64,000 nt of DNA from Candidatus Woesearchaeota archaeon. Its GTDB lineage: Archaea; Nanobdellota; Nanobdellia; Woesearchaeales; GW2011-AR4. The position numbers and the translations under genes were made by a program. The stretch covers positions 1,553-65,552 of the forward strand of contig JACOUX010000057.1 of the NCBI GenBank assembly GCA_016177615.1. The letters run 5' to 3'. Each line of letters starts with the position of its first letter. Position 1 is the stretch's first letter. Of this stretch, positions 3,445-56,194 are shown piece after piece. The notes below the pieces were generated by a model. It had not been told where the DNA came from. It worked only from the letters and a program-made list of their open reading frames with translations, and ran no database searches.

Positions 3445-3469
3445 CTTATGTCTATACAATGTCTATACA

Positions 3470-29966: not shown

Positions 29967-29994
29967 TTTTTCTCCTCGGACAAATAGATAAAGA

Positions 29995-30002
29995 TTTAAA
30001 TA
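29995..30002. promoter_or_regulatory. shared TATA element (GATTTAAATAG) between divergent genes
   Basis: Its centre (29998.5) is about 25 nt from the ATG at 30023 and about 32 nt from the minus-strand ATG at 29966. Confidence 0.5.
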
Positions 30003-30022
30003 GATTTCTATTTTTCGGTATT

Positions 30023-38200: not shown

Positions 38201-38520
38201 ATGAAAAGACTCTGCTGACAGTGACTGAGAACGGCTATGGAAAAAGAACCCTCATATCAGAATACAGGCTAATTAGCAGAGGCGGCTCAGGAGTGATAAA
38301 CATCCAGTGCAGCGAAAGAAATGGAAAAGTTGTCACAATATGCGACGTAACAGATAATGACGATTTAATCTTTGTCAGCAGGAACGGAATTGTAATAAGG
38401 TGCCCTTCAACTGATATTTCTGTTATTGGAAGAAATACACAAGGAGTTAGGGTTATGAAGCTGGAAGAAAATGACAAAGTTGTGAGTGCTGTCAAGATTG
38501 CAAAAGAAAATGTTGTTTAA
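35284..38520 (+). CDS. gyrA: DNA gyrase subunit A, intein-containing precursor
   Basis: [17 protein letters not shown], then QGNFG|intein|[14 protein letters not shown] (catalytic Tyr region), plus C-terminal beta-pinwheel repeats. 1078 aa, or 815 aa without the intein. Confidence 0.9.
35629..36417 (+). mobile_element. 263-aa intein in gyrA with an HNH-like internal segment
   Basis: Starts [13 protein letters not shown] (block A) and has TLNHKF (block B). Ends [18 protein letters not shown], followed by +1 Ser. The internal [15 protein letters not shown] resembles an HNH core. Confidence 0.8.
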
Positions 38521-38525
38521 AAAGA

Positions 38526-38533
38526 TTTAAATA
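38526..38533 (+). promoter_or_regulatory. TATA box (TTTAAATA) of the giant gene
   Basis: Centre is about 27 nt upstream of the ATG at 38557, in the 36-nt gap after gyrA. Confidence 0.55.
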
Positions 38534-38556: not shown

Positions 38557-41500
38557 ATGAAAATTAATAAAGGGGAAAAAGAGTCGAGTTCATTTTTTTT
38601 TATATCGGCTGCATTGATATTGATAGCTGGCATATTCTTCTTTATGGGCTATTTTGATAATAGGCTTTCATCAATAACAAATAAAGTAGTGGCAGCTGGG
38701 GCTGTTACACCTACTGCAAATCTCTATGTCCGTGATGGCGGAACTGGTACGACGTGCACAGATTGGGGAGCAAACGCTTGTGATACTCTTCCAGCCATTC
38801 TCCAGCGAGGAGCGACGTACTATATCGCTGATGGCTTCTATGGCAGCTACACCTTTGATGATCCTGTTTCTGGGACACAACCGATTACCGTCAAAAAAGC
38901 CACCATTGCTGAGCATGGAACTGCCACCGGCTGGGATAATACTTATGGCGACGGAACTGCTGTTTTTAGTGGTATAACTTTTACTACTTCCTACTGGGTT
39001 TTTGATGGCGTAACAGGTGGGGGGACAAGCACCTGGAATTCCGGCAAGGCTACTTCAGGTTTTGGCTTTGAGGTTACGAGGACTCCTCCGAATGTCTGTG
39101 GGGACAATGGCAATCTGGTTACTTTAGGTGCGAGCGTTTCTAATATTATTATCAAACATGCCAATATTCATGCTGGCAGCAACAACTATCCCATAAATGG
39201 CATCAAAGGTACGAATGGAGCAAGTAACATCATTATTTCTGACAATGCCATTTACACAACCTTCGGGCCAGCATTCCATATCGGAACGTGGAGCAATGCG
39301 GTCATAGAACGAAACTACATAGCGGATGTGAGAAATACTGGCGCTACCGATCCGCGTGGCTTTTGCGCGAACTGGCACGCCGAAGGGATTTCCTCGATCG
39401 GCACCAACAACAACCTAACCGTCCGCCACAATCTCTGGGATCGGATCGACGGCACCGCGGTCATCGCCGGAGTTAATGTAGGTACCTCAAACAACTGGAA
39501 AGTATATGGCAACATATTCTCGCGGAGCGTTACCCCAATCTACTACTACTTTGAGCCATCGCCCGGTACGAACCGGCAGACGATGAATAATCTCGAGTTT
39601 TACAACAACAACATCGTCAATATGCTCGGGGGTTCCCAAGGAGGCATTATGATCCAATCCGGCTCCAATAACCGAATTTACAACAATATCTGGTACAACA
39701 ATATTGCGAACTCTTTCGCCATATCCGGGACGCACGATTACAATTTCTTCTCTGATAACCGAAGAACCGAGGGCTGCAACCCCGCCTGCGACAAGGACGC
39801 GGAAGGCGCTGCCGGCGAAGCCAATGCCCAGACTTCATCCGGCGATCCTTTCGCCGGCGGCAGCAACGTGGATCCTTTGACCGGTAATTTCCATTTAAAG
39901 TCAGCCACCAATCGGGGAACTTCTCTGCCTTCACCCTATGATGTTGATCCAGATAACGCTATCCGCGGCGTTGATGGTGTGTGGGACAGAGGAGCGTATG
40001 AATATGTTCCTTCTACTTTGCGCATTTACTATGTTGCCCAGGCAGGGAATGATGCTAATCCAGGCACTTTATCACAACCATGGAAAACCATTCAGAAAGC
40101 GGCAAACACGGTGCAGGCCGGCGACACAGTCATTGTGAGCGCAGGAACGTACAACGAGCGTGTCACTTTTTCTGCTGGCCATTCCGGCAGCGCCGGCAAG
40201 AAGATCACTTTCATCGCCTCTCCGCTCAAGTCCGTGATCATGCAGGGATTTGACACCACCAACGCCAACTACCTGCGCATCGAGGGCTTCAATATCACCG
40301 GTTCGCCGCCGTGGTGGAAAGGCGGCGGCGTGTGGCTGTCAAGCAACAACGTGGAGATTGTCGGGAATTATTTTTATGATTTGATCGGCGCGGGGGTATT
40401 AACGTTCTGGGACCAGAATAAGCTGCTGCAGAATACCTACATAGCCAACAACCACATTTATCACTCCGGAGCAGGGATTTATGCCGTTGGTAATAACGTG
40501 CTTGTAGAAAACAATGAAGTGGAGCGGTTGTATACCCAAGCAGGCAGTCCGGATGCGGATTACGCGCGCTTTTTTGGCAGCAATATCACTTTCAGAAATA
40601 ATTTTTTCCATGGCACGCAGGAAAACGAAACCGGTGCGTCGCACGTTGATTGTTTCCAGACGTATGACGTCAATGGGGAATATGCCCAGCACGTTCTGAT
40701 AGAAAACAATGCCTGCTATAACTACGATCAAGGGCTGATGGTGAGTACCGCCAAATACCGCAATAGCTATGACTTTACGTTACGAAATAACGTCTTTGCC
40801 CACTCCCTAGCATGGGGGCTGTCGGTCTATGCTGTTACTGATGTCAAGGTCTACAACAATGTGTTTGCGGACGTGAAGTATCACGGCGTGGGATTCGGTG
40901 CGGGCGCGACGGGAGAAGTAAAAAACAATATCTTTTATAATGCCGGCAGCAATTACTGGGCAGACGCCGAGACCAATGCCACCGTGACCGGCGGCTACAA
41001 CATTCTCTATCCCGAACACTACCCCTGGTTCAAAACAGCAACGGATATTATCAAAGACCCGCTGTTTGTGGATGCGGCCAATGATAATTTTCATCTCAAA
41101 AGCAATTCGCCTGCAATTAATGCGGGAACGGTTATAAGCGAGTTTAATTATGACAAAGATGGCACCTCCCGCCTCCAAGGCACGGCATGGGACATCGGAG
41201 CGTATGAATATGCCACAGGAGCTCCACCAACCGCCACCTATTACATCCGAAGCGGCGCGACTGGTTTGACCTGTGCTGACTGGGGAGCCAATGCCTGCAA
41301 TGCATTGCCTGCAACTCTCCAGAGAGGAGCCATCTATTATATCGCTGATGGCAGCTATGGTTCATATACATTCGACGATCCGGTTTCAGGAACACAAACC
41401 ATTACCATAAAAAAAGCGACTGTTGCAGAGCACGGCACGAGCACAGGATGGTCAGACTCTTACGGCGACGGCACAGCCGCATGGGGAGCCGTGACGTTCA

Positions 41501-50500: not shown

Positions 50501-53500
50501 TCCAAAAATTCACCTTTGGCATTCGCGCCGTAGATGGCGGCAGCGGGATTACGCCAGAGAATGTCGTCATTCGTAATAATGAAGTTCGCAAGCTGAAATC
50601 GAATGACTGGTATGGCATCCAGGTAAATGGAATGAACATTTCTGTCGAGAATAACAAAGTCACCGATGCCCAACGGGCAATTGGCATTCTTGTCGGCGGC
50701 AATGGAATCATGGTCAGGAACAACTTTGTACAGAGGACGTCTCGCAACGGCATTTGGTTTATGGGTGCGGCAAACAGCCAGATACTCAATAACACCATCA
50801 CCGAAATACTCGGGACGCACGCGAATTCCATCACGGTATATCAGGACAGCCAGAATATTCTAGTGGCGAACAATAAGGTGTTCAATTCGGAGCGGCCGCT
50901 GACATTCGAACGGTCGCAGAATTTGACGGTTATAAACAATCTTTTTGATGGCCGGCTGGACGGAAAATTTTTGGATTCCCACATCGTTGCTGACTGGGGG
51001 AACATGACAGGGGCTGTGAATTTGCTCAATAATGTCATAGTAGGGAGCAATCGCACTTCTCTGCTGCTTCAGAGTACGGCAAATTTCGTCGTCAAGAACA
51101 ATATCATCGGCAACCAGGTCCCATCGGGAAGCTCGGCCCTTCCTTACACGAACAACATTTTTACCAATCCAAGCAGTGCGCCATTGAGCAATGGCAACAT
51201 CCAAGTCACTGACCTTTCAAAAATATTCGTCGACCCAATATCTGTTCCAGCAGACTACCGCCTCAAACAGGGTTCTGCGGCAATAGACAAAGGAGGCGGT
51301 ATCTCTTCTGTCTTCCCGTCAACTCTTTTTGCCGGTTATGAGTATGCTAAAGATTTCGCCGGCACCTCCCGCCCCAAGGGCTCAGCATGGGATATCGGGG
51401 CGTATGAATCATCCGCTAGCGGTGCTAACTGGTACGTTGATAACCTCGCAACCGGAAAAAATGACGGCACGTCATGGGCAAATGCATGGAAATCTTTCGG
51501 GTCTATAGTCTGGGGTGCCAGTGGAGTCAAGGCAGGCGACACATTACACATTTCAGGCGGCACGAGTTCAAAAGTGTACCATGAGACATTGGCAATGATG
51601 TCAAATAGTGGGACGGCAAATGCGTGGATTACAATCTCAGTCGGCCAGGACGCTGGTCATAATGGCCAGGTAATTGTAGATGGGGATAATATCAGAAATA
51701 AGGGGATCAGTATTGGCAGCTACACTCTTCTCACAGGAAAAGTCGGCAATTCATCCAAATTGACATTGAGGAATTTTGTCGTAAACCAAACCGGCAACCG
51801 TGAGGTGGATAGCGGCACGGCAATCTGGGCTGCCGCGAATACTATAATTGAATATACGGAAATTAACCATGCGAATAACGGGATCTATGCTTATGGGCAA
51901 AATACTGAAATTAGAAACAGCTATCTTCACGACATCTGGGGGGATTTCGCAATTCGCGCAGTGCAATACCTTGGAACTGATTTTGATAACATCAGGATTC
52001 ACCATAACACAATCGAGGTCAATGGCGACTTCACCGGAAGCAACGGCGGGCCGGACGGCGTGCAATCCCGCAACGGCTTGACCATGAATGATAATGTTTT
52101 GAGGGTCGTTTCCGGACCGGTAAATCCCGGCCAGCATCCTGACGGGGTCCAGGCCATGGGCAGCTATAACAAGATCTACAACAATTACTTTGCTAATTTC
52201 ATCAACTCCGGCATAAAGATCGAGCCTTTCCAAGATACGGCCTGGGAAGGAGATTACATCTACAATAATATAATTACAGTTGACTCAAGCCCTTTGCCGA
52301 ATTTGTATGAGCGCGGCATTGAATTCGGGGCAGCTGTCAATGTAACTTCTGTCAAAAATGTACTCATCTTGAACAACAATTTTATCGACCTGAATTTTCT
52401 GGGAATAAATGGGGGCGTCAAGACGACAAACGTTTCGAATGTTGTCATCAGGAATAATGTTTTCCACAACACAGGAAGAAATTCAGGCAAGGCGGTTATA
52501 GCGTGGAATGACCCGGGCAAGAAAACAGACATTGACTACAACCTTATAAGCCCGGGCTCTGACGGGGGCAATCTGATTATTTTAAACGGCAACTGGAGCT
52601 CTAGTTATGTTCAAGCCCATCCAAGGGCAGGCACGCCATCATTTCTTTCTTATTCCTTGCCGAGAAACCGGAATAACAATTTCCATCTCGCTACGAGTGA
52701 CACTGCTGCGAGAGATTTGGGCATGGACGCTTCTGCCTATTTTAATTCAGACAAAGATGGCGTTATCAGGCCCCAGGGCTCGGCCTGGGACATAGGGGCT
52801 TACGAATATAATAGCTCTATTATTTCTGCAAAACAGAATGTTCATTATATCCGAGCAGGAGCTGCAGGAGCAAATGACGGTTCTGACTGGGCAAATGCTT
52901 ATTTCTCTTTTCCAGCTAATTTAGTGGCGGGCGATACTTATTATGTTGCAGGCGGAAATTTCAACACAACAACTATTCGAAGCGCATTGACAAGCACATC
53001 ATGGACATACATAAAAAAAGCAACTGCTTCATCTCATGGAACTGGGACTGGTTGGTCTGACTCTTATGGCGGCCAAGTCACCATTAACGGCACTTTGTTT
53101 GTGAGCAGCCCTTACTTGGATATTGATGGAGTTACAGGCGCGGATAATTCAGGATATGGAATTAAAGTGGTGATGAAGAATTGCAACACAAATGCTCAAG
53201 GTATCTATATTGCCCAAAATCAAGGGCATATCCATCTCTCCCATATAGAAGTCCAAGGGTGCGGAGAAGATATTCCCTTTGATCAAAGGGGGGTTTTTAC
53301 AGTGAACACTTTGCCCGTATCTGATCAGTACTATAGTTACCTTTGGGTTCATGACCTTAGCGGCAATCCAATAAGCCTTGGCCAGTATACTAACAACTTT
53401 ACTCTCGAATACTCAAGGCTTGAGAGAATGCATCAAATAGATCCATCAATTCACGGACAAGCGATACAGATCACTGCGCCGCCATCAAACAACATAACAA

Positions 53501-55824
53501 TAAGATATAACAAGTTCATTGACACCAGCGGAACAGCGGCAGTAGCCCTTCTCGGCGCCAATGGAGAAACATTTTCCAACATTTTTGTCTATGACAATTT
53601 ATTTTGGTCGTCCGACAAGAACAGATACACTTTTTCGCCAGGAGCTATTTATGGAAGGGTCAATGTCAGCCAGAACAATGTTCTTGTATACAACAATATT
53701 TTTTACAGTATAACCAATCCTGAAACGTTTATGAGCGGAGATATCGTAACCAAAAGCGATAACAAGAATAATATTTATGTGAATAGTATATTTAATTTCC
53801 CGCACTATAAAACTAATTCATCAAATAATTTATATTTCAATAACACAGGGAAAAACATTCCTTTAGGGGAACCTAACCAAATTAGCGCAGCAAGATCTCC
53901 TTTTGTAAATGCTCCCACAAACTTCTATTTAGCCTCAAATGCAGAAGCAATAGATAAAGGAGTTGCCCTTAGCCAACCATATAATGTAGATATCCTTGGC
54001 ACCTCCCGTCCACAGGGCTCAGCATGGGATATCGGAGCGTATGAATACACTGGCGAATCTCTAATTCAAACCTACAGTTTGACAGTCACTTCAATGGGAA
54101 ATGGCTTTGGAATCGTTACCTGCGGAGGGACAACCTGTCCTTCTTCCGTATCTGCAAATACTCAGCTCACTTTTGTTGCTAATCCTTCTGCTGGATCAGT
54201 TTTTAGCGGCTGGTCAGGAGCCTGTGCTGGCACTGCTCCCGCCTGTACTTTGAAGATAACCGCTACTACCTCGGTCACTGCTTCTTTTGCTGTTACAGCT
54301 TCTCCAGATACAACTCCTCCTTCAATCTTCTTGACAGCTCCGGTTTCCGGAGACAATATTTCTGGAGGCATAGTTGTATCTGCCCGTGCCACAGATCCTA
54401 TCGTTCAGGGCCAGACTACATCAGGAATAGCCAGCGTCCAGTTCAAGATTGATGGCTTAAATTTAGGGCCAATGTTGACAATGACGCCTTATGGAATTTT
54501 TTGGAATGCAAGCACAGCAACTGCAGGCTCGCATGTGCTTAGTGCAGCGGCAACTGATGCGGCAGGAAACAATGCGACAGCAATCCCTGTTGTGATAAAT
54601 GTTACCAGCTACCAACCGCCTGATTCAGATGATGACGGTGTTCCAGACAATATCGACAAGTGCCGCCATACCCCATCAAAAATGCAAATCAACATATATG
54701 GGTGCCCGCTTCCGATTTTTGGAAAATTTACCCCTGCGCTTACAGTCAATTTCAGCGCAGTGGACTTGACAAATTTCACTGGCTTTAGAATCGGTGTGCA
54801 GAACTTTGGACAGATAGATTATGGCAATAGGATGTTTAGCTTTATAGGTGACAACTCCAGCATGTCTAATATATCCCCTCTTGTGCAGATTGACATGGAA
54901 TCTCTTATACAGTTCCAGCCGCTAAAAGTTATAGTAAATTCAGAATATTTCAGAAGCTTAAATGCTCCAGCAACTGTCACGCTTATGAACATAAGCAATA
55001 TCACAAATCCTGTTGTGCTTAAAAATGGAGTGATTTGCACAGAGTGCAGAATAAGAAGCTTTGCAAACAGCCAGATAGTGTTTGATGTTCAAAATTTCTC
55101 AGAATATTCTGTTGCAGAAGGCAGCTACTGCGGCGACAATTATTGCAGCTCTAATGAGGATTGCTCTGCCTGCCAAAGTGATTGTGGCGCATGCCCTGCT
55201 CCCTCTGGAGGGGGTGGAGGCAGCTCAGGCGGCGGAGGCGGCGGCTCTTCCGGAGGTGGTGGTGGAGGTGGAGGAGGTGGAACCCCGGGATTTGTCTGCA
55301 ACATGGATTGGCAGTGCACTTCATGGGGCAACTGCATTAGCAGCTGGCAGATAAGGCAGTGCGAGTTTGTGAAAGTGCCACAGTATGTGCGGAACGAGAC
55401 ATGCTCAACGTCATCACAGCAGCCATCTACAAGCCAGCAGTGCGCATCCCCTCAGGCTGATCAAGGGCAGCCCATCACTGATCCAAAAACACAACAGCCT
55501 GAAATCCTGCAACAAACTCCGCAGCAACCTCAAGCTCCTGAAGCCAAAGAAATCAGAAAGGACAACAAAAACTTAATGCGCTCGATAATAATCAGCTCAC
55601 TGGCGATTGTAATGCTCATCACCTTAGTTGCAGTAATAAAGACCTATAAATCAAAAAGCCAAGCACCGAAGCTGGAGCCTGGGCTTGACAGAAAAACAAT
55701 GCAGCAGCTTAACTCTTATGTAAAAACAATGAGAAACCTGGGCAAAGAAGATAATGAAATCAAGAAGTCTTTGCTTAAGGTTGGGTGGAAGGAGAAAGAA
55801 GTTGAATGGATGTTTAGGAAGTAG
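38557..55824 (+). CDS. giant (5,755 aa) membrane-anchored multi-domain surface protein; putative adhesin/glycan-binding or glycan-degrading array
   Basis: One uninterrupted ORF. Order: N-terminal hydrophobic anchor, nine beta-helix modules each ending in WDxGAYE, a ConA/LamG-like domain, 14 FG-GAP repeats, Ig-like modules, a Cys-rich/poly-Gly/Gln-Pro stalk, a C-terminal TM helix, and a short basic tail. Confidence 0.85.
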   Translation: MKINKGEKESSSFFFISAALILIAGIFFFMGYFDNRLSSITNKVVAAGAVTPTANLYVRDGGTGTTCTDWGANACDTLPAILQRGATYYIADGFYGSYTFDDPVSGTQPITVKKATIAEHGTATGWDNTYGDGTAVFSGITFTTSYWVFDGVTGGGTSTWNSGKATSGFGFEVTRTPPNVCGDNGNLVTLGASVSNIIIKHANIHAGSNNYPINGIKGTNGASNIIISDNAIYTTFGPAFHIGTWSNAVIERNYIADVRNTGATDPRGFCANWHAEGISSIGTNNNLTVRHNLWDRIDGTAVIAGVNVGTSNNWKVYGNIFSRSVTPIYYYFEPSPGTNRQTMNNLEFYNNNIVNMLGGSQGGIMIQSGSNNRIYNNIWYNNIANSFAISGTHDYNFFSDNRRTEGCNPACDKDAEGAAGEANAQTSSGDPFAGGSNVDPLTGNFHLKSATNRGTSLPSPYDVDPDNAIRGVDGVWDRGAYEYVPSTLRIYYVAQAGNDANPGTLSQPWKTIQKAANTVQAGDTVIVSAGTYNERVTFSAGHSGSAGKKITFIASPLKSVIMQGFDTTNANYLRIEGFNITGSPPWWKGGGVWLSSNNVEIVGNYFYDLIGAGVLTFWDQNKLLQNTYIANNHIYHSGAGIYAVGNNVLVENNEVERLYTQAGSPDADYARFFGSNITFRNNFFHGTQENETGASHVDCFQTYDVNGEYAQHVLIENNACYNYDQGLMVSTAKYRNSYDFTLRNNVFAHSLAWGLSVYAVTDVKVYNNVFADVKYHGVGFGAGATGEVKNNIFYNAGSNYWADAETNATVTGGYNILYPEHYPWFKTATDIIKDPLFVDAANDNFHLKSNSPAINAGTVISEFNYDKDGTSRLQGTAWDIGAYEYATGAPPTATYYIRSGATGLTCADWGANACNALPATLQRGAIYYIADGSYGSYTFDDPVSGTQTITIKKATVAEHGTSTGWSDSYGDGTAAWGAVTFSTSYWVFDGATGGGHGSWTSGHGFTFSSPAGTNVAYVSLPDGVSNIIVRHSSFTQTGNTEATTIGAHAFYAPGTLSNSLFEYNYFENLGGLPFLFRNGAGNVIQYNWLGNICGQSVADVNQHCEALVLWDMDDVHFRWNYIGESPSSGGFVKNANPTSDSIRIYGNVFRNGFPINCNTGPCTNWRIFNNAFVTGITGPLGGDGARSGFLVYNNIIRNANVASLGGTHDYNWYSAVTGTSCSMQSSAHENVNKLYPGNCDTVTETLNPFVNINGATPESLKLANPLSGNPGTDVCALDSCTGNKFYNLDAFGNIRGADGVWDRGAYEYTGSSPLSPPAGTFYIRDGATGTTCTDWGANACDTLPAILQRGATYYIADGSYGSYTFDDPVSGTQTITIKKATLADHGTNTGWQSSYGDGVASFSGIRFSTPYYTFDGVVGSGKTGHGFEVQPSSPADAIVLSGNVNNIVFRHINAHIYNEGTAKTSMTTFTMILKATTGTTNNIIIEDSYFHHVFGCQMQVVGANNWIIQNNYMSNQRSTAEQHAALWCDQSSDNVIFRNNMFVDIEGTSFIDLIEGPDTANGFKIYNNLFWHSNSNPWGASVSGVITVANDASNARTATNWEIYGNSIVNIKGRSAIDIASGSGNDVKNNYWFCNRQDDSYTNYMFISGAASSYNYYSACAHPYSFSSGTGEPVLLDGPNSKLSANSTNPFMDWPNGDFTLRTATWSGANLPSPYNTDLLGNIRGADGVWDRGAYEFAGGATPPPPSSRNWYLRSGATGNGSSWTNAWGSVGSIAWSSIQPGDTLWIAGGTYGSLVVGKSGNADTDAGRIFIKRATQSAHGSDTGWSSSYDSQVVFASISWTSPNVGSYVTVDGQVDSGIRVATRATGGREGTAVFIGRGQNYITLRNMEMAGPCGSTPCMQGGDNRALSTTAWSGSSYELVDNLKVQYSKIHGACTNIWLMNADNAILEYNEIYNSHATDTVPCHPNVVATSQSSNVIFRYNKVHDYATEGIMMLSGNSGTWYVYGNLWYAGTGYARVLESQDGTNGPVYFYGNTMVDLQQSVRTANNGVWHSASQGRNNIYWNASSPGLPSESNNIVGSGSSSPFVNYAGRDYHLTSTSAARNAGATLTNDGFINKDLEGNTRGADGAWDIGAYEYISSGIPPLADNASLTLFDDFGSTTLDSAWLFTDPLLNSNFSLMANPGHLQVNVPAGSTHDCWPGTSNCVRMLRSVNNADAVYETKIDGVNIGASYQTYGIMLSQDSANYLRFEFWNGGSGAQPSVWRIIGGSGSNVILAPATTLGSSNYIRVTRTGSVFQLDYSTNGMTWTTAGSFTQSGFTVNQAGVYVINAGANPATTGNFDYFSVAQFTPPPPTDTTPPVVRSFVIPATATSLTVPITAFTATDNVAVTGYLITETATAPAATATGWTASAPASYTFASAGAKTLYAWAKDAAGKVSAQSASASATTLALPPSGDIPFASVTIDANNPVDPHNKAVGDINGDGFVDVLAAGSSSSGLYWYEYPSWTKRLIASGAFTTDMETGDIDGDGDVDVVIPNGLGLMWYKNPRPLGNPATDAWTPVNIGGAGANNHDVELADLNKDGKLDVVSRPKGGGATNVWLQNTPTSWTRVVASTRAGEGTALGDIDGDGDVDIAHNGFWLENLGNGASWSERNIDVNWPLDVGVHIADINKDGRNDVVLAPSESGGRFSWYESINPKTGPWTEHAISSTISYAHTFKSADMDKDGKLDLVTAEMHQSSNDEVSVWRNNGGGLSWTKQVVVNTGSHNLRLADIGNDGDIDIVGANWNDAAPDSAIIRMWRNDLNSKSTLDSWQRSVADVAKPARAVFIRSADLDSDGKKDLVTGGWWYKNPGTLSGGWTRKTIGAPLNNIAVIYDFDSDGDLDLLGTQGVGSDVNNRFAWARNDGKGNFTVLTNIATGGSGDFLQGAVAGRFSSAGSIQVALSWHNGGGGVQMLTVPADPSTTTWTWKVISTTSQDEDLSAGDIDRDGDLDLLLGTQWLHNDGSSWTPLTLFSTTASPDRNRLSDINRDGRLDSVVGYEAISVFGKLAWYEQPLNPTNAWTEHVIANVIGPMSLDVADMDFDGDLDVVVGEHNLANSASAKLYVFENVDTIGGTWSSHVVYTGDEHHDGTQVADLDSDGDPDIYSIGWNNNQLTVYENKATVAILPPLTPTPNNFYVRPKGNVYGSGNGLDWNNAWSDVTAINWNAVSAGDTIWIAGGSYGVLTIGKSGTAGNPIKIYRVRATDPVPTSAAGWSASYDSTVTMVRVVSESRSYWTLDGRVPHIGISVVNPSLTSHGVYLGTSNWSGITLTNLLLSGPVPDNTISGVTEQIRAIHYNGYQGSGSGLTVSYSTLEKYPNLALLININNVLIEHNKFQKNYRGSGSVHPGVMSVIGLTNVKFRFNEITEWQAEGIMMDFIGAGDAVNDNWDIYGNLWHDSIAGSTNNILTAQYKPQTNIRLYSNTVVNSWLGIIVGNGGSWASSSISRNNLIYFAQTYTTLDFPGGDNDYNYGNAPARGAHSISNLSSNVFANYAGRDYRIVSTIGAGYPRDKGVALGSLYGVDFAGNTRIGAWDIGAYEYTGITPLVDTTPPIVTSFSIPSTSNSLTVPISLFTATDNVAVTGYLVTETATAPAASAAGWTASAPPSYTFSSAGAKTLYAWAKDAAGKVSASASRSVTITLPPETWKTYYVDYDSGSDSNNGLSASAPWKHAPGDSNAVGNPKSKVLAAGDTVLFKGSVKYQGSIALDGRYAFGATGNPITLKGDGWGSGKAVIDGSEPITAAFKKCQSSAQCAGNPNWNSMYYADIGSGYTFETGFYEDDNFLWYAQDPNPTDPFNYDRRDSMRVIPKGSTTITQTRTSITDPTYFTQSDPAFWNSAYVIAWRVPNVMSIKKITGYNPATRTISHEDLGGDLYDHTSYDSYYAILNHPSVINAEREYSYDQPTGRFYLWPKGGDISGHTYSVRKQSAGIYANSVKNLVIEGFGVQKFTFGIRAVDGGSGITPENVVIRNNEVRKLKSNDWYGIQVNGMNISVENNKVTDAQRAIGILVGGNGIMVRNNFVQRTSRNGIWFMGAANSQILNNTITEILGTHANSITVYQDSQNILVANNKVFNSERPLTFERSQNLTVINNLFDGRLDGKFLDSHIVADWGNMTGAVNLLNNVIVGSNRTSLLLQSTANFVVKNNIIGNQVPSGSSALPYTNNIFTNPSSAPLSNGNIQVTDLSKIFVDPISVPADYRLKQGSAAIDKGGGISSVFPSTLFAGYEYAKDFAGTSRPKGSAWDIGAYESSASGANWYVDNLATGKNDGTSWANAWKSFGSIVWGASGVKAGDTLHISGGTSSKVYHETLAMMSNSGTANAWITISVGQDAGHNGQVIVDGDNIRNKGISIGSYTLLTGKVGNSSKLTLRNFVVNQTGNREVDSGTAIWAAANTIIEYTEINHANNGIYAYGQNTEIRNSYLHDIWGDFAIRAVQYLGTDFDNIRIHHNTIEVNGDFTGSNGGPDGVQSRNGLTMNDNVLRVVSGPVNPGQHPDGVQAMGSYNKIYNNYFANFINSGIKIEPFQDTAWEGDYIYNNIITVDSSPLPNLYERGIEFGAAVNVTSVKNVLILNNNFIDLNFLGINGGVKTTNVSNVVIRNNVFHNTGRNSGKAVIAWNDPGKKTDIDYNLISPGSDGGNLIILNGNWSSSYVQAHPRAGTPSFLSYSLPRNRNNNFHLATSDTAARDLGMDASAYFNSDKDGVIRPQGSAWDIGAYEYNSSIISAKQNVHYIRAGAAGANDGSDWANAYFSFPANLVAGDTYYVAGGNFNTTTIRSALTSTSWTYIKKATASSHGTGTGWSDSYGGQVTINGTLFVSSPYLDIDGVTGADNSGYGIKVVMKNCNTNAQGIYIAQNQGHIHLSHIEVQGCGEDIPFDQRGVFTVNTLPVSDQYYSYLWVHDLSGNPISLGQYTNNFTLEYSRLERMHQIDPSIHGQAIQITAPPSNNITIRYNKFIDTSGTAAVALLGANGETFSNIFVYDNLFWSSDKNRYTFSPGAIYGRVNVSQNNVLVYNNIFYSITNPETFMSGDIVTKSDNKNNIYVNSIFNFPHYKTNSSNNLYFNNTGKNIPLGEPNQISAARSPFVNAPTNFYLASNAEAIDKGVALSQPYNVDILGTSRPQGSAWDIGAYEYTGESLIQTYSLTVTSMGNGFGIVTCGGTTCPSSVSANTQLTFVANPSAGSVFSGWSGACAGTAPACTLKITATTSVTASFAVTASPDTTPPSIFLTAPVSGDNISGGIVVSARATDPIVQGQTTSGIASVQFKIDGLNLGPMLTMTPYGIFWNASTATAGSHVLSAAATDAAGNNATAIPVVINVTSYQPPDSDDDGVPDNIDKCRHTPSKMQINIYGCPLPIFGKFTPALTVNFSAVDLTNFTGFRIGVQNFGQIDYGNRMFSFIGDNSSMSNISPLVQIDMESLIQFQPLKVIVNSEYFRSLNAPATVTLMNISNITNPVVLKNGVICTECRIRSFANSQIVFDVQNFSEYSVAEGSYCGDNYCSSNEDCSACQSDCGACPAPSGGGGGSSGGGGGGSSGGGGGGGGGGTPGFVCNMDWQCTSWGNCISSWQIRQCEFVKVPQYVRNETCSTSSQQPSTSQQCASPQADQGQPITDPKTQQPEILQQTPQQPQAPEAKEIRKDNKNLMRSIIISSLAIVMLITLVAVIKTYKSKSQAPKLEPGLDRKTMQQLNSYVKTMRNLGKEDNEIKKSLLKVGWKEKEVEWMFRK
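38590..38655 (+). other. N-terminal signal-anchor/TM helix of the giant protein
   Basis: SFFFISAALILIAGIFFFMGYF. Confidence 0.6.
38716..40005 (+). other. beta-helix module 1 (N-cap class A)
   Basis: Begins NLYVRDGGTGTTCTDWGANACDTLPAILQRGATYYIADG and ends GVWDRGAYEY. Confidence 0.6.
40018..41211 (+). other. beta-helix module 2 (N-cap class C)
   Basis: Begins YYVAQAGNDANPGTLSQPWKTIQKAANTVQAGDTVIV and ends TAWDIGAYEY. Confidence 0.6.
41233..42480 (+). other. beta-helix module 3 (class A)
   Basis: Begins ATYYIRSGATGLTCADWGANACNALPATLQRGAIYYIADG and ends GVWDRGAYEY. Confidence 0.6.
42511..43767 (+). other. beta-helix module 4 (class A)
   Basis: Begins GTFYIRDGATGTTCTDWGANACDTLPAILQRGATYYIADG and ends GVWDRGAYEF. 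Confidence 0.6.
43801..44970 (+). other. beta-helix module 5 (class B)
   Basis: Begins RNWYLRSGATGNGSSWTNAWGSVGSIAWSSIQPGDTLWIAGGTYG and ends GAWDIGAYEY. Confidence 0.6.
45001..45600 (+). other. concanavalin-A/LamG-like lectin-fold domain
   Basis: FDDFGSTTLDSAW..HLQVNVP..YGIMLSQDSANYLRFEFW..YIRVTRTGSVFQLDYSTNGMTW..FDYFSV. This pattern is typical of jelly-roll LamG_3-like domains. Confidence 0.55.
45622..45873 (+). repeat. 84-aa Ig-like module, copy 1
   Basis: DTTPPVVRSFVIPATATSLTVPITAFTATDNVAVTGYLITETATAPAA..GAKTLYAWAKDAAGKVSA. About 80% nucleotide identity (by eye) to 49309-49560. Confidence 0.7.
45931..48030 (+). repeat. 14 FG-GAP/VCBS-type repeats (two predicted 7-bladed beta-propellers)
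   Basis: Fourteen D-x-[DN]-x-D-G-x-x-D-type calcium-loop motifs (GDINGDGFVDV, GDIDGDGDVDV, ADLNKDGKLDV ... ADLDSDGDPDI), spaced about 45-55 aa apart. One of them is degenerate. Confidence 0.75.
48070..49287 (+). other. beta-helix module 6 (class B)
   Basis: Begins NNFYVRPKGNVYGSGNGLDWNNAWSDVTAINWNAVSAGDTIWIAGGSYG and ends GAWDIGAYEY. Confidence 0.6.
49309..49560 (+). repeat. 84-aa Ig-like module, copy 2
   Basis: DTTPPIVTSFSIPSTSNSLTVPISLFTATDNVAVTGYLVTETATAPAA..GAKTLYAWAKDAAGKVSA. Confidence 0.7.
49600..51408 (+). other. beta-helix module 7 (class C, longest)
   Basis: Begins TWKTYYVDYDSGSDSNNGLSASAPWKH..AAGDTVLF. Contains repeated NN-x-[IV] rungs and ends SAWDIGAYES. Confidence 0.6.
51424..52809 (+). 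other. beta-helix module 8 (class B)
   Basis: Begins ANWYVDNLATGKNDGTSWANAWKSFGSIVWG..AGDTLHISGG and ends SAWDIGAYEY. Confidence 0.6.
52837..54048 (+). other. beta-helix module 9 (class B, host-like AT-rich codons)
   Basis: Begins NVHYIRAGAAGANDGSDWANAY..AGDTYYVAGG and ends SAWDIGAYEY. Confidence 0.6.
54073..54291 (+). other. divergent InlB-B-repeat-like module
   Basis: YSLTVTSMGNGFGIVTCGGTTC..TQLTFVANPSAGSVFSGWSGACAG..CTLKITATTSVTASFA. Confidence 0.5.
54307..54606 (+). other. Ig-like (Big-type) domain
   Basis: DTTPPSIFLTAPVSGDNISGGIVVSARATD..VQFKIDGLNLG..GSHVLSAAATDAAGNNATAIPVVINVT. Confidence 0.55.
55120..55368 (+). other. Cys-rich modules flanking a 25-residue Gly/Ser run (55207-55281)
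   Basis: GSYCGDNYCSSNEDCSACQSDCGACP, then GGGGGSSGGGGGGSSGGGGGGGGGG, then FVCNMDWQCTSWGNCISSWQIRQCEF. Confidence 0.7.
55576..55647 (+). other. C-terminal TM anchor of the giant protein
   Basis: MRSIIISSLAIVMLITLVAVIKTY follows a Gln/Pro-rich stalk and precedes a 58-aa K/E-rich tail. Confidence 0.7.
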
Positions 55825-55951: not shown

Positions 55952-56194
55952 TCAAAAAACAGCCAATAAGCCGCCTGAATAAATAAAAAATTTCCACGAC
56001 TTCTTGAATATTGAGTAAGAGACTATCCAGATTGCTATCAGGCCGCCCATAATGGGCAAAAACAAGGAAATAAAGAATTCCATTCCAAGCTCATAATTTA
56101 ACTGATATACGCCAACGAAAAGAACTATCAGGCTCAGTACGGCTAAAATTACTGATTCCATCTTCAGCCATTTAGGCAGTTCTTTCCAATTCAT
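55952..56194 (-). CDS. small membrane protein (3 predicted TM helices)
   Basis: 80-aa hydrophobic ORF. Confidence 0.4.
   Translation of the reverse strand: MNWKELPKWLKMESVILAVLSLIVLFVGVYQLNYELGMEFFISLFLPIMGGLIAIWIVSYSIFKKSWKFFIYSGGLLAVF

What the first reader, a model, noticed from the sequence alone, without database searches (positions are those of the whole stretch)
38557..55824. Single 17.3-kb ORF encoding a 5,755-aa membrane-anchored, multi-module surface protein
One reading frame stays open for 17,268 nt, more than a quarter of the window, and it has its own TATA box. The product is anchored at both ends: an N-terminal hydrophobic helix and a C-terminal TM helix with a basic tail. Between the anchors lie nine parallel-beta-helix modules, a ConA/LamG-like lectin fold, 14 FG-GAP repeats, at least three Ig-like modules, an InlB-B-like module and a Cys-rich/poly-Gly/Gln-Pro stalk. 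Beta-helix (pectate-lyase-like) folds and FG-GAP propellers are classical carbohydrate-active or adhesive folds. An archaeon of this type would plausibly use such an array to bind or remodel another cell's envelope (inference). I know of no characterised protein with this arrangement.
Basis: partly seen in the sequence, partly recalled or inferred. Interest (0 to 1): 0.85.

Follow-up and report, generated by a model that had tools for sequence, protein, structure and literature searches.

The report
Giant mosaic surface protein of archaeon
A real 17.3-kb gene in a tiny, probably symbiotic (DPANN-type) archaeon encodes a 5,755-residue membrane-tethered surface protein whose sugar-binding or sugar-cutting modules look largely borrowed from bacteria, and whose lineage-specific stalk contains an unexpected relative of the self-cleaving domain of the nuclear-pore protein Nup98.

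Summary
Window 38557-55824 (+) is one uninterrupted 5,755-codon ORF. It has an archaeal TATA box at -31 and two hydrophobic segments, aa 9-34 and aa 5672-5699.

- nine right-handed beta-helix modules
- a ConA-like domain
- a 14-blade FG-GAP region
- an InlB-B repeat
- a Big_7 Ig domain plus two weaker beta-sandwiches
- a Cys/poly-Gly/Gln-Pro stalk

- The last ~400 aa are a reusable anchoring cassette. It occurs at the C-terminus of many Woesearchaeota/Nanoarchaeota proteins.
- The cassette's 'unknown' domain is a homolog of the Nup98 autoproteolytic (S59) domain. It belongs to a family of at least 4,085 protein clusters, often in giants of up to 7,646 aa.
- Modules M1-M8 are compositionally foreign. 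Their closest relatives are bacterial secreted proteins, with 79.8% nucleotide identity to a Yanofskybacteria (CPR) gene.

No full-length ortholog was found. The most likely function is a long, displayed glycan-binding and probably glycan-cleaving array for contact with another cell's envelope; this is inferred, not shown. Giant DPANN surface proteins are a known class, so I rate this a new variant of a known kind.

The parts
38526..38533 (+). Archaeal TATA-like box TTTAAATA, starting at -31 from the ATG. This position implies a leaderless or near-leaderless mRNA.
   Evidence: Boxes of the same kind sit at -28 to -35 before at least ten other genes in the window.
38557..55824 (+). Complete ORF of 5,755 codons plus stop.
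38581..38658 (+). N-terminal hydrophobic segment, aa 9-34, after a K-rich n-region. It is either a Sec signal peptide or a signal anchor.
   Evidence: Kyte-Doolittle 2.5. A comparable K-rich, hydrophobic N-terminus occurs in P0080; the BLAST alignment covers P0080 aa 1-940 against giant aa 3-893.
38695..40020 (+). Beta-helix module M1 (aa 47-488), of the M1/M3/M4/M9 subfamily. It ends in a choice-of-anchor-Q motif.
   Evidence: AF2 pLDDT 94.3 with a right-handed beta-helix fold. It is 55-59% identical to stand-alone bacterial proteins of about 470-550 aa.
40021..41235 (+). Beta-helix module M2 (aa 489-893), of the DUF1565/Pel9A-like type.
   Evidence: Pfam Beta_helix and DUF1565. It is 79% aa and 79.8% nt identical to the Yanofskybacteria protein P0078.
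41236..42492 (+). Beta-helix module M3 (aa 894-1312).
   Evidence: 38% identical to M1 and 39% to M4. Colinear with the second module of P0078.
42493..43776 (+). Beta-helix module M4 (aa 1313-1740).
   Evidence: 40% identical to M1, E = 1e-102.
43777..44991 (+). Beta-helix module M5 (aa 1741-2145).
   Evidence: Pfam Beta_helix 26.7 bits against a cut-off of 25.9. 34% identical to M6.
44992..45594 (+). ConA-like lectin/glucanase-fold domain (aa 2146-2346).
   Evidence: GH43_C2 29.6 bits against 22.7; DUF1349 31.4 against 32.4. Weak hit to a GH43 chain.
45595..45927 (+). Beta-sandwich spacer Ig1 (aa 2347-2457), probably Fn3/Ig-like.
   Evidence: 59% identical to Ig2. Weak hit to the chitinase A1 chain 1k85, E = 0.0019. 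No Pfam hit above threshold.
45928..48006 (+). FG-GAP region (aa 2458-3150) of 14 blades with DxDxDGxxD Ca loops. It probably forms two seven-bladed propellers.
   Evidence: FG-GAP_3 E = 1e-32. 13 Ca-loop motifs. The same discrete ~690-aa module occurs in 76 metagenome loci.
48007..49311 (+). Beta-helix module M6 (aa 3151-3585).
   Evidence: 34% identical to M5; end motif.
49312..49596 (+). Beta-sandwich spacer Ig2 (aa 3586-3680).
   Evidence: Weak Big_13 hit, E = 0.057.
49597..51426 (+). Beta-helix module M7 (aa 3681-4290), the largest module, of the NosD/Beta_helix type with an N-terminal extension.
   Evidence: Beta_helix 51.3 bits and NosD 38.6 bits.
51427..52836 (+). Beta-helix module M8 (aa 4291-4760). 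It is the last module with raised GC3.
   Evidence: related to M2, M5 and M9.
52837..54066 (+). Beta-helix module M9 (aa 4761-5170). Its GC3 of 0.36 is like that of the rest of the genome.
   Evidence: 28-29% identical to M1 and M4.
54067..54291 (+). InlB B-repeat-like domain (aa 5171-5245).
   Evidence: Flg_new_2 24.1 bits against 23.6. Many homologs carry PF18998.
54292..54576 (+). Bacterial Ig domain, Big_7 (aa 5246-5340).
   Evidence: Big_7 40.1 bits against 24.1.
54577..55116 (+). Domain X (aa 5341-5520). It consists of a thrombospondin-type-3-like Ca loop followed by a Nup98-autoproteolytic-domain-like beta-sandwich. The sandwich ends in VQ-N-F5514-S5515-E-Y.
   Evidence: AF2 core pLDDT > 90. 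The top 18 Foldseek PDB hits are all Nup98/Nup145N/Nup116 autoproteolytic domains. The family profile against PDB gives E = 9e-5, with the F-S motif aligned to the Nup98 HF|S site. All 19 family members tested hit PF04096.
55117..55287 (+). Cys-rich knuckle (YCGDNYCSSNEDCSACQSDCGACP) followed by a poly-Gly/Ser linker (aa 5521-5577).
   Evidence: conserved in P0001 and P0002.
55288..55455 (+). Six-Cys 'knot' GFVCNMDWQC..W..C....R.C.FVKVPQ..C..C (aa 5578-5633). It is the signature of the lineage-specific anchor.
   Evidence: 29 GTDB loci carry it, most labelled Woesearchaeota or Nanoarchaeota, always 59-195 aa before the end of the ORF.
55456..55569 (+). Gln/Pro/Glu-rich linker (aa 5634-5671).
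55570..55653 (+). C-terminal transmembrane helix (aa 5672-5699).
   Evidence: Kyte-Doolittle 2.8.
55654..55821 (+). Basic cytoplasmic tail with the conserved motif Y..(M/A)R..G....IK..L...G(W/H) (aa 5700-5755).
   Evidence: Shared with P0001, P0002 and P0056.

Best explanation
**What it is.** This is a genuine, intact gene of a Woesearchaeota/Nanoarchaeota-type (DPANN) archaeon. It encodes a membrane-tethered cell-surface protein. The protein is exported through an N-terminal Sec-type hydrophobic segment. It is held in the membrane by a C-terminal helix with a short conserved cytoplasmic tail.

**The anchor.** The membrane-proximal ~400 residues are a reusable, lineage-specific anchoring cassette. 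From N- to C-terminus it reads: Ca loop, Nup98-autopeptidase-like beta-sandwich, Cys-rich knuckle, poly-Gly, six-Cys knot, Gln/Pro linker, TM helix, tail. This lineage attaches the same cassette to many different passengers.

**The passenger.** The passenger here is exceptionally long. It contains nine divergent right-handed beta-helix modules in three subfamilies, a ConA-like lectin domain, a 14-blade Ca-binding FG-GAP region (probably a double propeller), and beta-sandwich spacers.

**How it was built (inferred).** Modules M1-M8, about 4,700 aa, were acquired horizontally from bacteria. There they occur as stand-alone secreted proteins fused to dockerins, lectin domains or T9SS signals. The block was inserted between a native signal sequence and a native core of M9 plus cassette.

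**What it does (inferred from the families' known biology).** From my own estimate based on beta-helix geometry (not a tool result), the extended protein would project on the order of 100 nm from a very small cell. It would act as a multivalent glycan-binding array, and probably a glycan-cleaving one of the lyase or hydrolase type. Its role would be to grip and locally open the polysaccharide or glycoprotein envelope of a partner cell, or to harvest extracellular polysaccharide. The Nup98-like domain next to the stalk may self-cleave, leaving the passenger attached non-covalently. That step is hypothetical.
For: **Gene reality and promoter:**

**Archaeal host.**
- The window encodes an archaeal class-I CCA-adding enzyme, and its genes have TATA boxes at about -30.
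- The Cys-knot cassette was found in 29 GTDB loci, most labelled Woesearchaeota or Nanoarchaeota.

**Cassette is modular.**
- It sits at the C-terminus of ORFs of 550 to more than 3,528 aa.
- Those ORFs share nothing else with this protein.

**Passenger folds:**

**Enzyme-like context.**
- The closest structures to M1 are GH136, PL9 and PL6 enzymes and phage depolymerase-like tailspikes.
- Stand-alone homologs of M1 are fused to dockerin, LamG, F5/8-C, Fn3, peptidoglycan-binding and T9SS domains.
- Polar residues K68, H74, H228, N305, N330 and N331 are invariant across 43 sequences, including M1, M3, M4 and M9.

**Horizontal origin.**
- GC3 is 0.48-0.62 for aa 301-4500, against 0.424 +/- 0.065 (maximum 0.498) for 40 other ORFs in the window.
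- GC3 is 0.30 for aa 1-46 and 0.36-0.41 from M9 through domain X (0.36 for M9, InlB and Ig3; 0.41 for domain X).
- M2 is 79.8% nt identical over 1,141 nt to a gene on a bacterial (RNase Y, HU) Yanofskybacteria contig. That gene is itself GC-atypical there.

**Nup98-like domain:**
- Across 408 copies, the residue aligned with the Nup98 nucleophile is T or S in 97%. By an independent motif count it is 98-99%.
- The preceding residue is F or W in 98%.
Against: - No catalytic residues were identified for any beta-helix module. Identity to solved enzymes is only 10-14%. The same fold searches also return the adhesin PfbA and structural phage proteins.
- There is no expression, localisation or host information.
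- The raised GC3 could partly reflect selection on this gene rather than transfer.
- Lineage assignment rests on the distribution of the cassette, not on marker genes. The window has no rRNA or tRNA, and the genome itself was not found in the collections.
- In this protein the His of the Nup98 HFS motif is Asn.
- Domain X also occurs in up to 11 internal copies in other giants. That fits a purely structural beta-sandwich as well as a cleavage module.
Confidence: 0.55

Rival explanations
1. **Non-catalytic adhesin or envelope scaffold.** In this reading the beta-helices and propellers are rigid, sticky building blocks, as in pertactin, FHA or PfbA-type adhesins and archaeal PbH1 surface proteins. 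They would give reach and multivalent binding, or form part of the cell's own sheath, without cutting anything.
For: - PfbA, a beta-helix adhesin, is among the fold matches.
- Most modules (M1, M3, M4, M6, M8, M9) have no Pfam enzyme-family hit.
- FG-GAP propellers, Ig-like domains and InlB-B repeats are classic adhesion or spacer modules.
- Other giants of the lineage that carry the same Nup98-like domain, several also with the Cys-knot anchor, look like repetitive scaffolds.
Against: - The best fold matches are dominated by GH, PL and depolymerase enzymes.
- The stand-alone homologs carry dockerins and carbohydrate-binding partners typical of secreted glycan-degrading enzymes.
- Polar His, Lys and Asn residues are invariant across 43 homologs at 28-60% identity. 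A pure spacer would not need them.
- The nine modules are divergent (21-40% identity) rather than recently duplicated spacers.
Confidence: 0.3
2. **Assembly artefact.** In this reading a metagenomic chimera or mis-join has fused a bacterial (CPR-like) multi-module gene into an archaeal contig, creating an artificial giant ORF.
For: - GC and GC3 step up at about aa 47 and down at about aa 4760.
- There is 79.8% nt identity to a gene on a bacterial contig.
- Read mapping was not possible.
Against: - Both composition steps fall exactly at module boundaries and keep the reading frame over 17.3 kb.
- P0080, a 1,482-aa protein from a uniformly 38% GC contig, has a comparable architecture of N-terminal segment plus M1 plus M2. 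It aligns with the giant from its first residue at 40% identity.
- The Yanofskybacteria gene is equally GC-atypical in its own contig. That points to real transfer from a third source.
- No long near-identical repeats exist that could mislead an assembler.
Confidence: 0.04
3. **Secretion or effector-delivery device.** In this reading the protein works like the SPEARE-type giant proteins of Nanohaloarchaeota, which are proposed to work with VirB4/TraG ATPases, or like a polymorphic-toxin carrier whose C-terminal part is released by an autopeptidase.
For: - Giant size in a DPANN host, as for the described giant surface proteins (PMC10266531).
- An autopeptidase-like domain is present.
Against: - No ATPase, toxin or peptidase domain was found anywhere in the protein.
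- What follows the Nup98-like domain is a stalk, a TM helix and a short tail, not an effector.
- The neighbouring genes are gyrA, the CCA-adding enzyme and a sugar nucleotidyltransferase, not secretion ATPases.
Confidence: 0.03

Closest known systems
Giant surface proteins of DPANN archaea ('SPEARE' proteins of Nanohaloarchaeota; SVXNc_0300 of 9,409 aa and BNXNv_0298 of 8,880 aa; PMC10266531, citing Hamm et al. 2019)
   Same: - A single enormous gene in a very small DPANN genome.
- An N-terminal Sec-type signal and a large modular ectodomain with Ig-like or lectin-like parts.
- A proposed role in contact with the host cell.
   Different: - Those proteins contain a VirB4/TraG-like ATPase domain, sit next to a secretion ATPase, and are rich in Ig/fibronectin arrays.
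- This protein has no ATPase. It is built mainly of beta-helices and carries a different, Woesearchaeota-type anchor cassette.
- Sequence similarity to the SPEARE proteins was not tested directly.
Uncharacterised metagenomic giants carrying domain X, some also with the Cys-knot anchor (for example P0214, 4,527 aa)
   Same: - The same Nup98-like domain X. P0214, like 26 of the best 140 hits, also has the six-Cys knot near the C-terminus.
- P0214 also carries nine Beta_helix/NosD stretches, so a multi-beta-helix giant with this anchor is not unique to the window.
   Different: - There is no BLAST-detectable similarity between their passengers and M1-M9, ConA or FG-GAP.
- They carry several interspersed copies of domain X (up to 11; P0214 has 8). 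P0214 also has a subtilase.
- The window protein has a single X copy, next to the stalk.
Secreted beta-helix carbohydrate-active enzymes (PL9 Pel9A 1ru4, PL6 chondroitinase B and alginate lyases, GH136 lacto-N-biosidase, GH120 XylC, phage tailspike depolymerases) and 'choice-of-anchor Q' surface proteins (NF041518)
   Same: - A right-handed parallel beta-helix fold.
- A DUF1565/Pel9A-type N-terminal cap in M2.
- A choice-of-anchor-Q C-terminal motif.
- Homologs fused to dockerin, lectin and T9SS domains.
   Different: - Identity is 10-14% and TM-scores are 0.3-0.57.
- No catalytic residues could be matched.
- Nine modules sit in one membrane-anchored archaeal polypeptide, rather than one catalytic module per protein.
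Nup98 / Nup145N / Nup116 autoproteolytic domain (peptidase family S59, Pfam PF04096)
   Same: - The fold: the top 18 PDB matches are all this domain.
- Profile similarity: E = 9e-5 against PDB, and 19 of 19 family members hit PF04096.
- The C-terminal strand motif F-N-V-T-x-F-[S/T]-x-Y aligns with Nup98 F-K-V-S-H-F|S-K-Y.
- Ser and Thr alternate at the nucleophile position, as among nucleoporins (5hb6 is a T994A mutant).
   Different: - It is extracellular, prokaryotic and often multi-copy.
- The His is not conserved: H 34%, then S, G, Q, R; it is Asn in this protein.
- It is shorter than the eukaryotic domain.
- Cleavage is untested.
- The giant's own score of 20.4 bits is below Pfam's gathering score of 28.4.
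Very large genes of Omnitrophota ('Archaeovorins'; bioRxiv 10.1101/2023.11.21.568195)
   Same: Very large multi-domain surface proteins, proposed to attach to and degrade another cell's wall.
   Different: - They are bacterial and larger than 10,000 aa.
- They have different domain sets: glycosyltransferases, peptidases, a SecA-like helicase and antiparallel beta-helices.
- That paper reports far fewer archaeal giants, mostly in Asgard archaea.

Membership tests
Right-handed parallel beta-helix (pectin-lyase fold; Pfam Beta_helix PF13229 / NosD / DUF1565) | A profile match above the curated threshold. | tested here: met
   M2 scores 63.3 bits, M5 26.7 bits and M7 51.3 bits, against a cut-off of 25.9. 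DUF1565 scores 34.1 against 20.3 in M2. M1, M3, M4, M6, M8 and M9 have no direct Pfam hit. They are linked to the others by BLAST at E = 1e-8 to 1e-102.
Right-handed parallel beta-helix | A three-dimensional fold of stacked three-strand coils. | tested here: met
   The M1 model has pLDDT 94.3 and pTM 0.93. Foldseek gives probability 1.0 to Pel9A, PL6, GH136 and GH28 structures. Only M1 was modelled.
Polysaccharide lyase or glycoside hydrolase (an enzymatically active beta-helix) | A catalytic constellation (Ca-binding acidic cluster plus Lys/Arg base for lyases; paired carboxylates for hydrolases), and measured activity. | tested here: inconclusive
   Invariant K68, H74, H228, N305, N330 and N331 exist in the M1 family. 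Identity to solved enzymes is 10-14%.
Choice-of-anchor Q domain proteins (NCBIfam NF041518) | A domain-model match above the cut-off. | tested here: met
   Scores of 75.3 and 102.1 bits against a cut-off of 25, over five stretches. Eight modules end in WD[IR]GAYE[YF]. M7 ends in WDIGAYES, read from the translation.
FG-GAP / integrin-alpha-type beta-propeller | FG-GAP repeats with Ca-binding DxDxDGxxD loops, in multiples of seven blades. | tested here: met
   FG-GAP_3 scores 112.7 bits. There are 13 Ca loops spaced about 45-55 aa apart, plus one 108-aa gap that fits a degenerate blade, giving 14 blades. Closure into two seven-bladed rings was not modelled.
ConA-like lectin/glucanase (GH43_C2 / DUF1349) | A profile match above the curated threshold. 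| tested here: met
   GH43_C2 scores 29.6 against 22.7. DUF1349 scores 31.4, just under its cut-off of 32.4.
Peptidase S59 (Nup98-96 autopeptidase, PF04096) | The domain fold. | tested here: met
   The top 18 Foldseek PDB hits are all Nup98/Nup145N/Nup116 autoproteolytic domains, with probability 1.0 and TM-scores of 0.42-0.53. GAIN domains come next. The model core has pLDDT > 90.
Peptidase S59 | A profile match above Pfam's gathering score. | tested here: inconclusive
   The window protein scores 19-20.4 bits, below 28.4. However, 19 of 19 family members hit PF04096 and no competing family (best E = 3.1e-8). The family profile also finds Nup98 in the PDB at E = 9e-5.
Peptidase S59 | The H-F-[S/T] scissile motif at the end of the domain. 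| tested here: inconclusive
   F5514 and S5515 are present and align with the Nup98 F|S site. Across 408 copies, F or W is 98% and T or S is 97%. The His is Asn in this protein and only 34% His in the family. Nup98 H862Q and H862A mutants are reported to cleave almost normally (PMC3210808).
Peptidase S59 | Actual self-cleavage. | not testable with these tools
   This needs expression of aa ~5340-5640, wild type and S5515A, followed by SDS-PAGE and mass spectrometry.
SPEARE-type nanohaloarchaeal giant proteins | A VirB4/TraG-like ATPase domain within the protein and an adjacent secretion ATPase. | tested here: not met
   No ATPase domain appears in any Pfam or NCBIfam scan of the protein. The neighbours are gyrA and the CCA-adding enzyme. 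The MoxR AAA gene lies about 4.7 kb downstream and is of a different family.
Woesearchaeota-type C-terminal anchor cassette (unnamed) | A poly-Gly/Ser linker, the six-Cys knot (C.{3}W.C.{2}W.{2}C...FVKVPQ), a polar linker and a TM helix, all within the last ~200 aa. | tested here: met
   The knot lies 59-195 aa from the ORF end in 29 GTDB loci. In the window protein it lies 175 aa from the end.

The most novel reading that the evidence does not exclude
Domain X would be a functional prokaryotic counterpart of the Nup98 autoproteolytic domain. On this reading it undergoes an N-O acyl shift at F5514|S5515, and at the equivalent F/W-T/S site in thousands of DPANN surface proteins. The huge ectodomain would then be held on its stalk only non-covalently, as a 'breakaway' or shedding joint like the SEA and GAIN domains of animal surface proteins. 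This archaeal extracellular family would also be the evolutionary source of a domain so far regarded, as far as I could find, as specific to eukaryotic nucleoporins. In addition, the passenger would document recent exchange of multi-kilobase surface-protein modules between CPR bacteria and DPANN archaea.
Probability: 0.25. Interest if true: 0.85.

Novelty: new variant of a known kind. Interest (0 to 1): 0.62.

Why it matters
DPANN archaea are thought to live attached to other cells, yet very little is known about the molecules that mediate contact. This gene gives three concrete leads.

1. **A defined anchoring cassette.** It can be used to catalogue the whole surface proteome of Woesearchaeota-type archaea from sequence alone.
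2. **Cross-domain module exchange.** Large blocks of glycan-active modules appear to move between CPR bacteria and DPANN archaea, the two main groups of ultra-small episymbionts. This suggests a shared toolbox for attacking or holding on to cell envelopes.
3. **A large prokaryotic family homologous to the Nup98 autoproteolytic domain.** It makes two questions testable:
   - Do archaeal surface proteins use self-cleaving joints?
   - Where did this nucleoporin domain come from?

The existence of a giant surface protein in a DPANN genome is not surprising in itself.

Tried and rejected
- **Whole-protein homolog search.** I used module-level searches instead.
- **Exact look-up of a neighbouring protein, to identify the source genome.** The CCA-adding enzyme is not on record. 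The source organism therefore remains inferred.
- **rRNA, tRNA and Rfam scans of the window.** Nothing was found, so no marker-based taxonomy is possible.
- **PDB sequence search of the two halves of the protein.** Only the DUF1565 cap of M2 matched, to GH120 and PL9 structures.
- **Search for full-length orthologs through the central FG-GAP module, with 10-kb flanks.** It returned 76 loci, none sharing anything beyond that module.
- **Search through the anchor knot in GTDB genomes.** It returned 29 loci sharing only the cassette, with or without domain X.
- **A thrombospondin type-1-like reading of the six-Cys knot.** This came from memory only. No Pfam TSP_1 hit appeared at E <= 1, so I do not claim it.
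- **Source names for metagenomic giants of the domain-X family.** None were available.
- **Membership of the SPEARE and Archaeovorin classes.** Both were considered and rejected because defining domains are missing.
- **Literature searches for prokaryotic Nup98-autoproteolytic-domain homologs.** They found nothing relevant in the held library. That is absence of evidence only.

Full report
**1. The observation**

Window 38557..55824 (+) is a single ORF of 5,755 codons starting at ATG. Its translation has no internal stop. From the ORF's own base composition, the log-probability of 5,755 stop-free codons is about -292. The other five frames are broken; the longest antisense ORFs are 343 and 367 aa.

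Internal DNA repeats reach at most 83.6% identity over 232 nt. There is therefore nothing that would make an assembler collapse or mis-join copies. I could not map reads.

A TTTAAATA box lies at 38526-38533, starting 31 nt before the ATG. In this window at least ten other genes that begin a transcription unit have a TTTAWATA-like box starting at -28 to -35. The box therefore fits the local, archaeal, leaderless-type promoter pattern and is not an isolated chance match.

Only two segments of the protein are strongly hydrophobic: aa 9-34 and aa 5672-5699. The latter is followed by a basic stretch.

**2. Anatomy**

*The nine beta-helix modules.* Self-comparison divides the protein into nine related modules of about 400-610 aa:

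| Module | Residues |
|---|---|
| M1 | 47-488 |
| M2 | 489-893 |
| M3 | 894-1312 |
| M4 | 1313-1740 |
| M5 | 1741-2145 |
| M6 | 3151-3585 |
| M7 | 3681-4290 |
| M8 | 4291-4760 |
| M9 | 4761-5170 |

- Eight modules end in WD[IR]GAYE[YF], and M7 ends in the variant WDIGAYES. NCBIfam recognises this as the 'choice-of-anchor Q' domain.
- The modules fall into three subfamilies: M1/M3/M4 (38-40% identical), with M9 more distant; M5/M6 (34%); and the DUF1565/NosD-like M2/M7/M8 (24-28%).
- M2, M5 and M7 pass Pfam's Beta_helix threshold.
- M1 has no Pfam hit. Modelled with a 43-sequence alignment, it reached pLDDT 94.3 and pTM 0.93. It is a right-handed parallel beta-helix.
- Its best solved-structure matches are GH136 lacto-N-biosidase, PL9 pectate lyase Pel9A, PL6 lyases and GH28 enzymes. 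The adhesin PfbA also appears.
- Among viral models it resembles tailspike and EPS-depolymerase proteins.

*Between and after the beta-helices.*
- A ConA-like domain, aa 2146-2346 (GH43_C2 above threshold).
- Two 59%-identical beta-sandwich spacers, Ig1 and Ig2. These give only weak Big_13 and FnIII hits.
- A 693-aa FG-GAP region with 13 recognisable Ca loops and room for a 14th blade.
- An InlB-B repeat.
- A Big_7 Ig domain.

The one reservation is that only one of the three 'Ig-like' modules reaches a curated threshold.

**3. The C-terminal ~400 residues are a reusable anchor**

A search with aa 5170-5755 found much smaller proteins that share only this end. Reading toward the C-terminus, the shared part contains:
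- a poly-Gly/Ser linker;
- a six-Cys motif, (G/F)(F/Y)VCNMDWQC..W..C...Q.R.C.FVKVPQ...C...C;
- a polar linker;
- a TM helix;
- and sometimes the tail motif Y..(M/A)R..G....IK..L...G(W/H).

Scanning one genome per GTDB species with the knot gave 29 loci. Seventeen are labelled Woesearchaeota or Nanoarchaeota. Twelve are low-GC co-assembly MAGs labelled 'uncultured Methanosarcinales'; I could not check that label.

In every locus the knot lies 59-195 aa before the end of an ORF of 550 to more than 3,528 aa. Those ORFs share nothing else with the window protein except, in some, the preceding domain X.

The cassette is therefore a lineage-specific surface anchor fitted to many different passengers. 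Three observations together place the window in a Woesearchaeota/Nanoarchaeota-type DPANN archaeon:
- the distribution of the cassette;
- the archaeal class-I CCA-adding enzyme encoded downstream;
- the TATA pattern of the window's genes.

This placement is an inference. The window has no rRNA or tRNA, and its genome is not in the searchable collections.

**4. Domain X is a Nup98-autopeptidase homolog**

*Evidence for homology.*
- The stretch aa 5341-5520 gave only sub-threshold Pfam hits, to TSP_3 and to Nucleoporin2/S59.
- I collected homologs and modelled the domain. The core has pLDDT above 90.
- The top 18 Foldseek matches in the PDB are all Nup98/Nup145N/Nup116 autoproteolytic domains, at probability 1.0 and TM-scores of 0.42-0.53. 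GAIN domains follow.
- Independently, a sequence profile of 19 family members finds Nup98 in the PDB at E = 9e-5, and its 16 best hits are all these nucleoporins.
- HMMER aligns the family's C-terminal strand, G-t-l-v-F-n-v-t-e-F-S-v-Y, with Nup98's GSWVFKVSHF(S->A)KY. That is the HF|S self-cleavage site.
- All 19 members hit Pfam PF04096 and no competing family.

*Size of the family.*
- An exhaustive profile search of 1.84 billion representative proteins found 4,085 proteins at E <= 1e-3 and 2,756 at E <= 1e-10.
- Of the best 140, 64 are at least 2,000 aa long (up to 7,646 aa), with up to 11 copies of the domain per protein.

*Conservation of the motif across 408 copies.*

| Position (relative to Nup98) | Residues |
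|---|---|
| Phe (P1) | F 84%, W 14% |
| Nucleophile (P1') | T 66%, S 31% |
| +2 | Y or F, 100% |
| +6 | E or D, 91% |
| His (P2) | H 34%, S 22%, G 20%, Q 11%, R 7% |

The window protein reads N-F5514-S5515-E-Y.

*What the literature says.* According to PMC3210808 (citing Hodel 2002 and Sun & Guo 2008):
- the buried Phe and the Ser/Thr/Cys nucleophile are the critical features;
- H862Q and H862A mutations affect Nup98 cleavage only slightly.

*Interpretation.* The family keeps what matters for an N-O acyl shift, but whether it cleaves is untested. The multi-copy arrangement in other giants is equally compatible with a purely structural beta-sandwich. I found no paper describing prokaryotic homologs of this domain in the held library.

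**5. The passenger is a mosaic with bacterial relatives**

*Homologs of M1 and M2.* A search with M1+M2 gave 279 hits.
- M1 is 55-59% identical to stand-alone proteins of about 470-550 aa from Deltaproteobacteria, WOR-3 (with a T9SS sorting domain) and Parcubacteria/Patescibacteria.
- Related proteins carry dockerin, LamG, F5/8-C, Fn3 or peptidoglycan-binding domains.
- Only one listed hit, P0106, is labelled Woesearchaeota.

*The Yanofskybacteria gene.*
- The best hit, P0078, lies at the end of a 166-kb Candidatus Yanofskybacteria contig. That contig carries RNase Y and HU and is therefore bacterial.
- P0078 has a signal sequence, then an M2-type module 79% identical to M2, then an M1/M3-type module.
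- It is colinear with aa 487-1310 of the giant before the contig ends.
- At the DNA level the M2 parts are 79.8% identical over 1,141 nt.

*Composition.*

| Region | GC3 |
|---|---|
| aa 301-4500, in 900-nt blocks | 0.48-0.62 |
| 40 other ORFs of the window | 0.424 +/- 0.065 (maximum 0.498) |
| aa 1-46 | 0.30 |
| M9 through domain X | 0.36-0.41 |

The Yanofskybacteria gene is likewise at 51% GC (GC3 0.57) in a 40% GC contig.

*The FG-GAP module.*
- It recurs as a sharply delimited ~690-aa unit in 76 metagenome loci.
- It is either stand-alone (about 730-820 aa) or embedded in unrelated proteins of 2,000-3,120 aa.

*Most economical reading (inference).* A native gene of the common type, signal plus one beta-helix (M9) plus cassette, was expanded. 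Horizontally acquired modules were inserted and shuffled between the signal and M9.

*Why an assembly chimera is unlikely.*
- Both composition steps coincide with module boundaries, in frame.
- P0080, from a uniformly 38% GC contig, aligns with the giant from its first residues through M2 at 40% identity.

No full-length ortholog was found anywhere.

**6. How it most likely works**

*Shown.* The protein has an export signal, a single C-terminal membrane helix, a flexible stalk, and a very long ectodomain of rigid beta-helices. That ectodomain also holds one lectin-fold domain and a Ca-binding FG-GAP propeller region.

*Inferred from what is known of these families.*
- Beta-helix proteins of this kind are mostly polysaccharide lyases, hydrolases or depolymerases, and sometimes adhesins.
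- ConA-like domains and FG-GAP propellers bind ligands, often glycans.
- Nine divergent modules (21-40% identity) imply several specificities.
- At about 4.8 Å per coil, nine helices plus spacers and stalk would span roughly 100 nm. This is my own estimate from known beta-helix geometry, not a tool result.

*Best explanation (confidence about 0.55).* The protein is a displayed, multivalent glycan-binding and probably glycan-cleaving array. A DPANN cell would use it to hold on to and locally open the envelope of a partner cell, or to scavenge polysaccharide.

*Main rival (about 0.3).* The same structure acts only as an adhesin or scaffold.

*Evidence that tilts toward enzymes, without deciding the matter.*
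- Polar residues are invariant across 43 M1-type sequences.
- The stand-alone homologs have CAZyme-like fusion partners.

The upstream 7-29 kb of the window is a glycosylation cluster, and the protein has 43 N-x-S/T sequons. A glycosylated surface protein is therefore plausible, though the count was not compared with chance expectation.

**7. Comparison with the known, and novelty**

- Giant surface proteins are an established feature of DPANN genomes (PMC10266531).
- Very large cell-wall-targeting proteins are described for Omnitrophota (bioRxiv 10.1101/2023.11.21.568195).
- This protein is not a member of either group, because their defining domains are absent.
- It does belong to a large, undescribed population of DPANN-type surface proteins that share domain X. 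26 of the best 140 members also carry the Cys-knot anchor, and at least one (P0214) is itself a multi-beta-helix giant.
- I therefore rate the giant ORF as a new variant of a known kind.

The more surprising results are side products of following it up: the modular anchor cassette, the bacterium-to-archaeon (CPR/DPANN) module sharing at 80% nucleotide identity, and the large prokaryotic family homologous to the Nup98 autoproteolytic domain.

**8. Verdict**

A giant surface protein in such an organism is expected, and its function remains inferred.
- It is still well above ordinary because of the testable Nup98-like self-cleavage hypothesis and the cross-domain mosaicism.

Noticed in passing
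window 35284-38520 (+): The gene immediately upstream encodes DNA gyrase subunit A interrupted by an intein. The Intein_splicing domain lies at aa 125-378, inside the DNA_topoisoIV domain. The gene ends 36 nt before the giant gene.
   Followed up: no
window ~7700-29100: This stretch is a dense glycosylation and polysaccharide-synthesis cluster. It includes UDP-glucose dehydrogenase, two GT4 glycosyltransferases, a Wzx-type flippase, a PMT_2 mannosyltransferase-like protein, a DegT aminotransferase and a sugar C-methyltransferase. A similar cluster surrounds the small cassette-bearing protein P0011 in a Woesearchaeota MAG.
   Followed up: partly
L033 10001-12971 (Candidatus Yanofskybacteria GCA_016185525.1, JACPNK010000002.1, end of contig): A CPR-bacterial multi-beta-helix gene is colinear with giant aa 487-1310. 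It is cut off by the contig end at 990 aa, so it may itself be much longer. Its GC (0.51) is foreign to its 0.40 GC contig.
   Followed up: partly
L006, L008, L012-L014, L018, L021, L025, L026, L028, L030: Twelve MAG contigs that carry the Woesearchaeota-type anchor knot are labelled 'uncultured Methanosarcinales' in their records. Their GC is only 0.32-0.42. The label may be wrong, or the cassette may reach beyond DPANN. This was not resolved.
   Followed up: no
giant aa 5700-5755 (window 55654-55821); P0001, P0002, P0056: A conserved ~35-aa cytoplasmic tail motif, Y..(M/A)R..G....IK..L...G(W/H), follows the TM helix in some but not all cassette proteins. It has no Pfam match. It could be a docking site for an intracellular partner.
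   Followed up: no
domain-X family alignment, profile positions 110-112 (giant aa ~5510-5512 reads D-V-Q): A conserved N-V-[T/S] sequon (N 80%, V 90%, T/S 91%) sits immediately before the F-[T/S] motif in the family. It is absent from the window protein, which has D-V-Q there. It may be a conserved N-glycosylation site next to the putative cleavage site.
   Followed up: no
window 55952-56194 (-): In the 470-nt gap after the giant gene lies a convergent 80-aa ORF. It appears to contain two or three hydrophobic helices and has a terminator-like hairpin. It may encode a small membrane protein.
   Followed up: no
window 60514-62734 (+): A MoxR-type AAA ATPase and a VWA-domain protein form a pair about 4.7 kb downstream. 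Such pairs often act as chaperones for large complexes. No link to the giant gene was tested.
   Followed up: no
window 46266-47297 (-) and 49717-50820 (-): Two long antisense ORFs (343 and 367 aa) lie inside the giant gene. They are most likely by-products of the raised GC content and the codon pattern of the sense frame, and not genes.
   Followed up: no
window 29936-32296 (+): A 786-aa ORF starting at TTG has no Pfam match. It lies between the glycosylation cluster and scpB.
   Followed up: no
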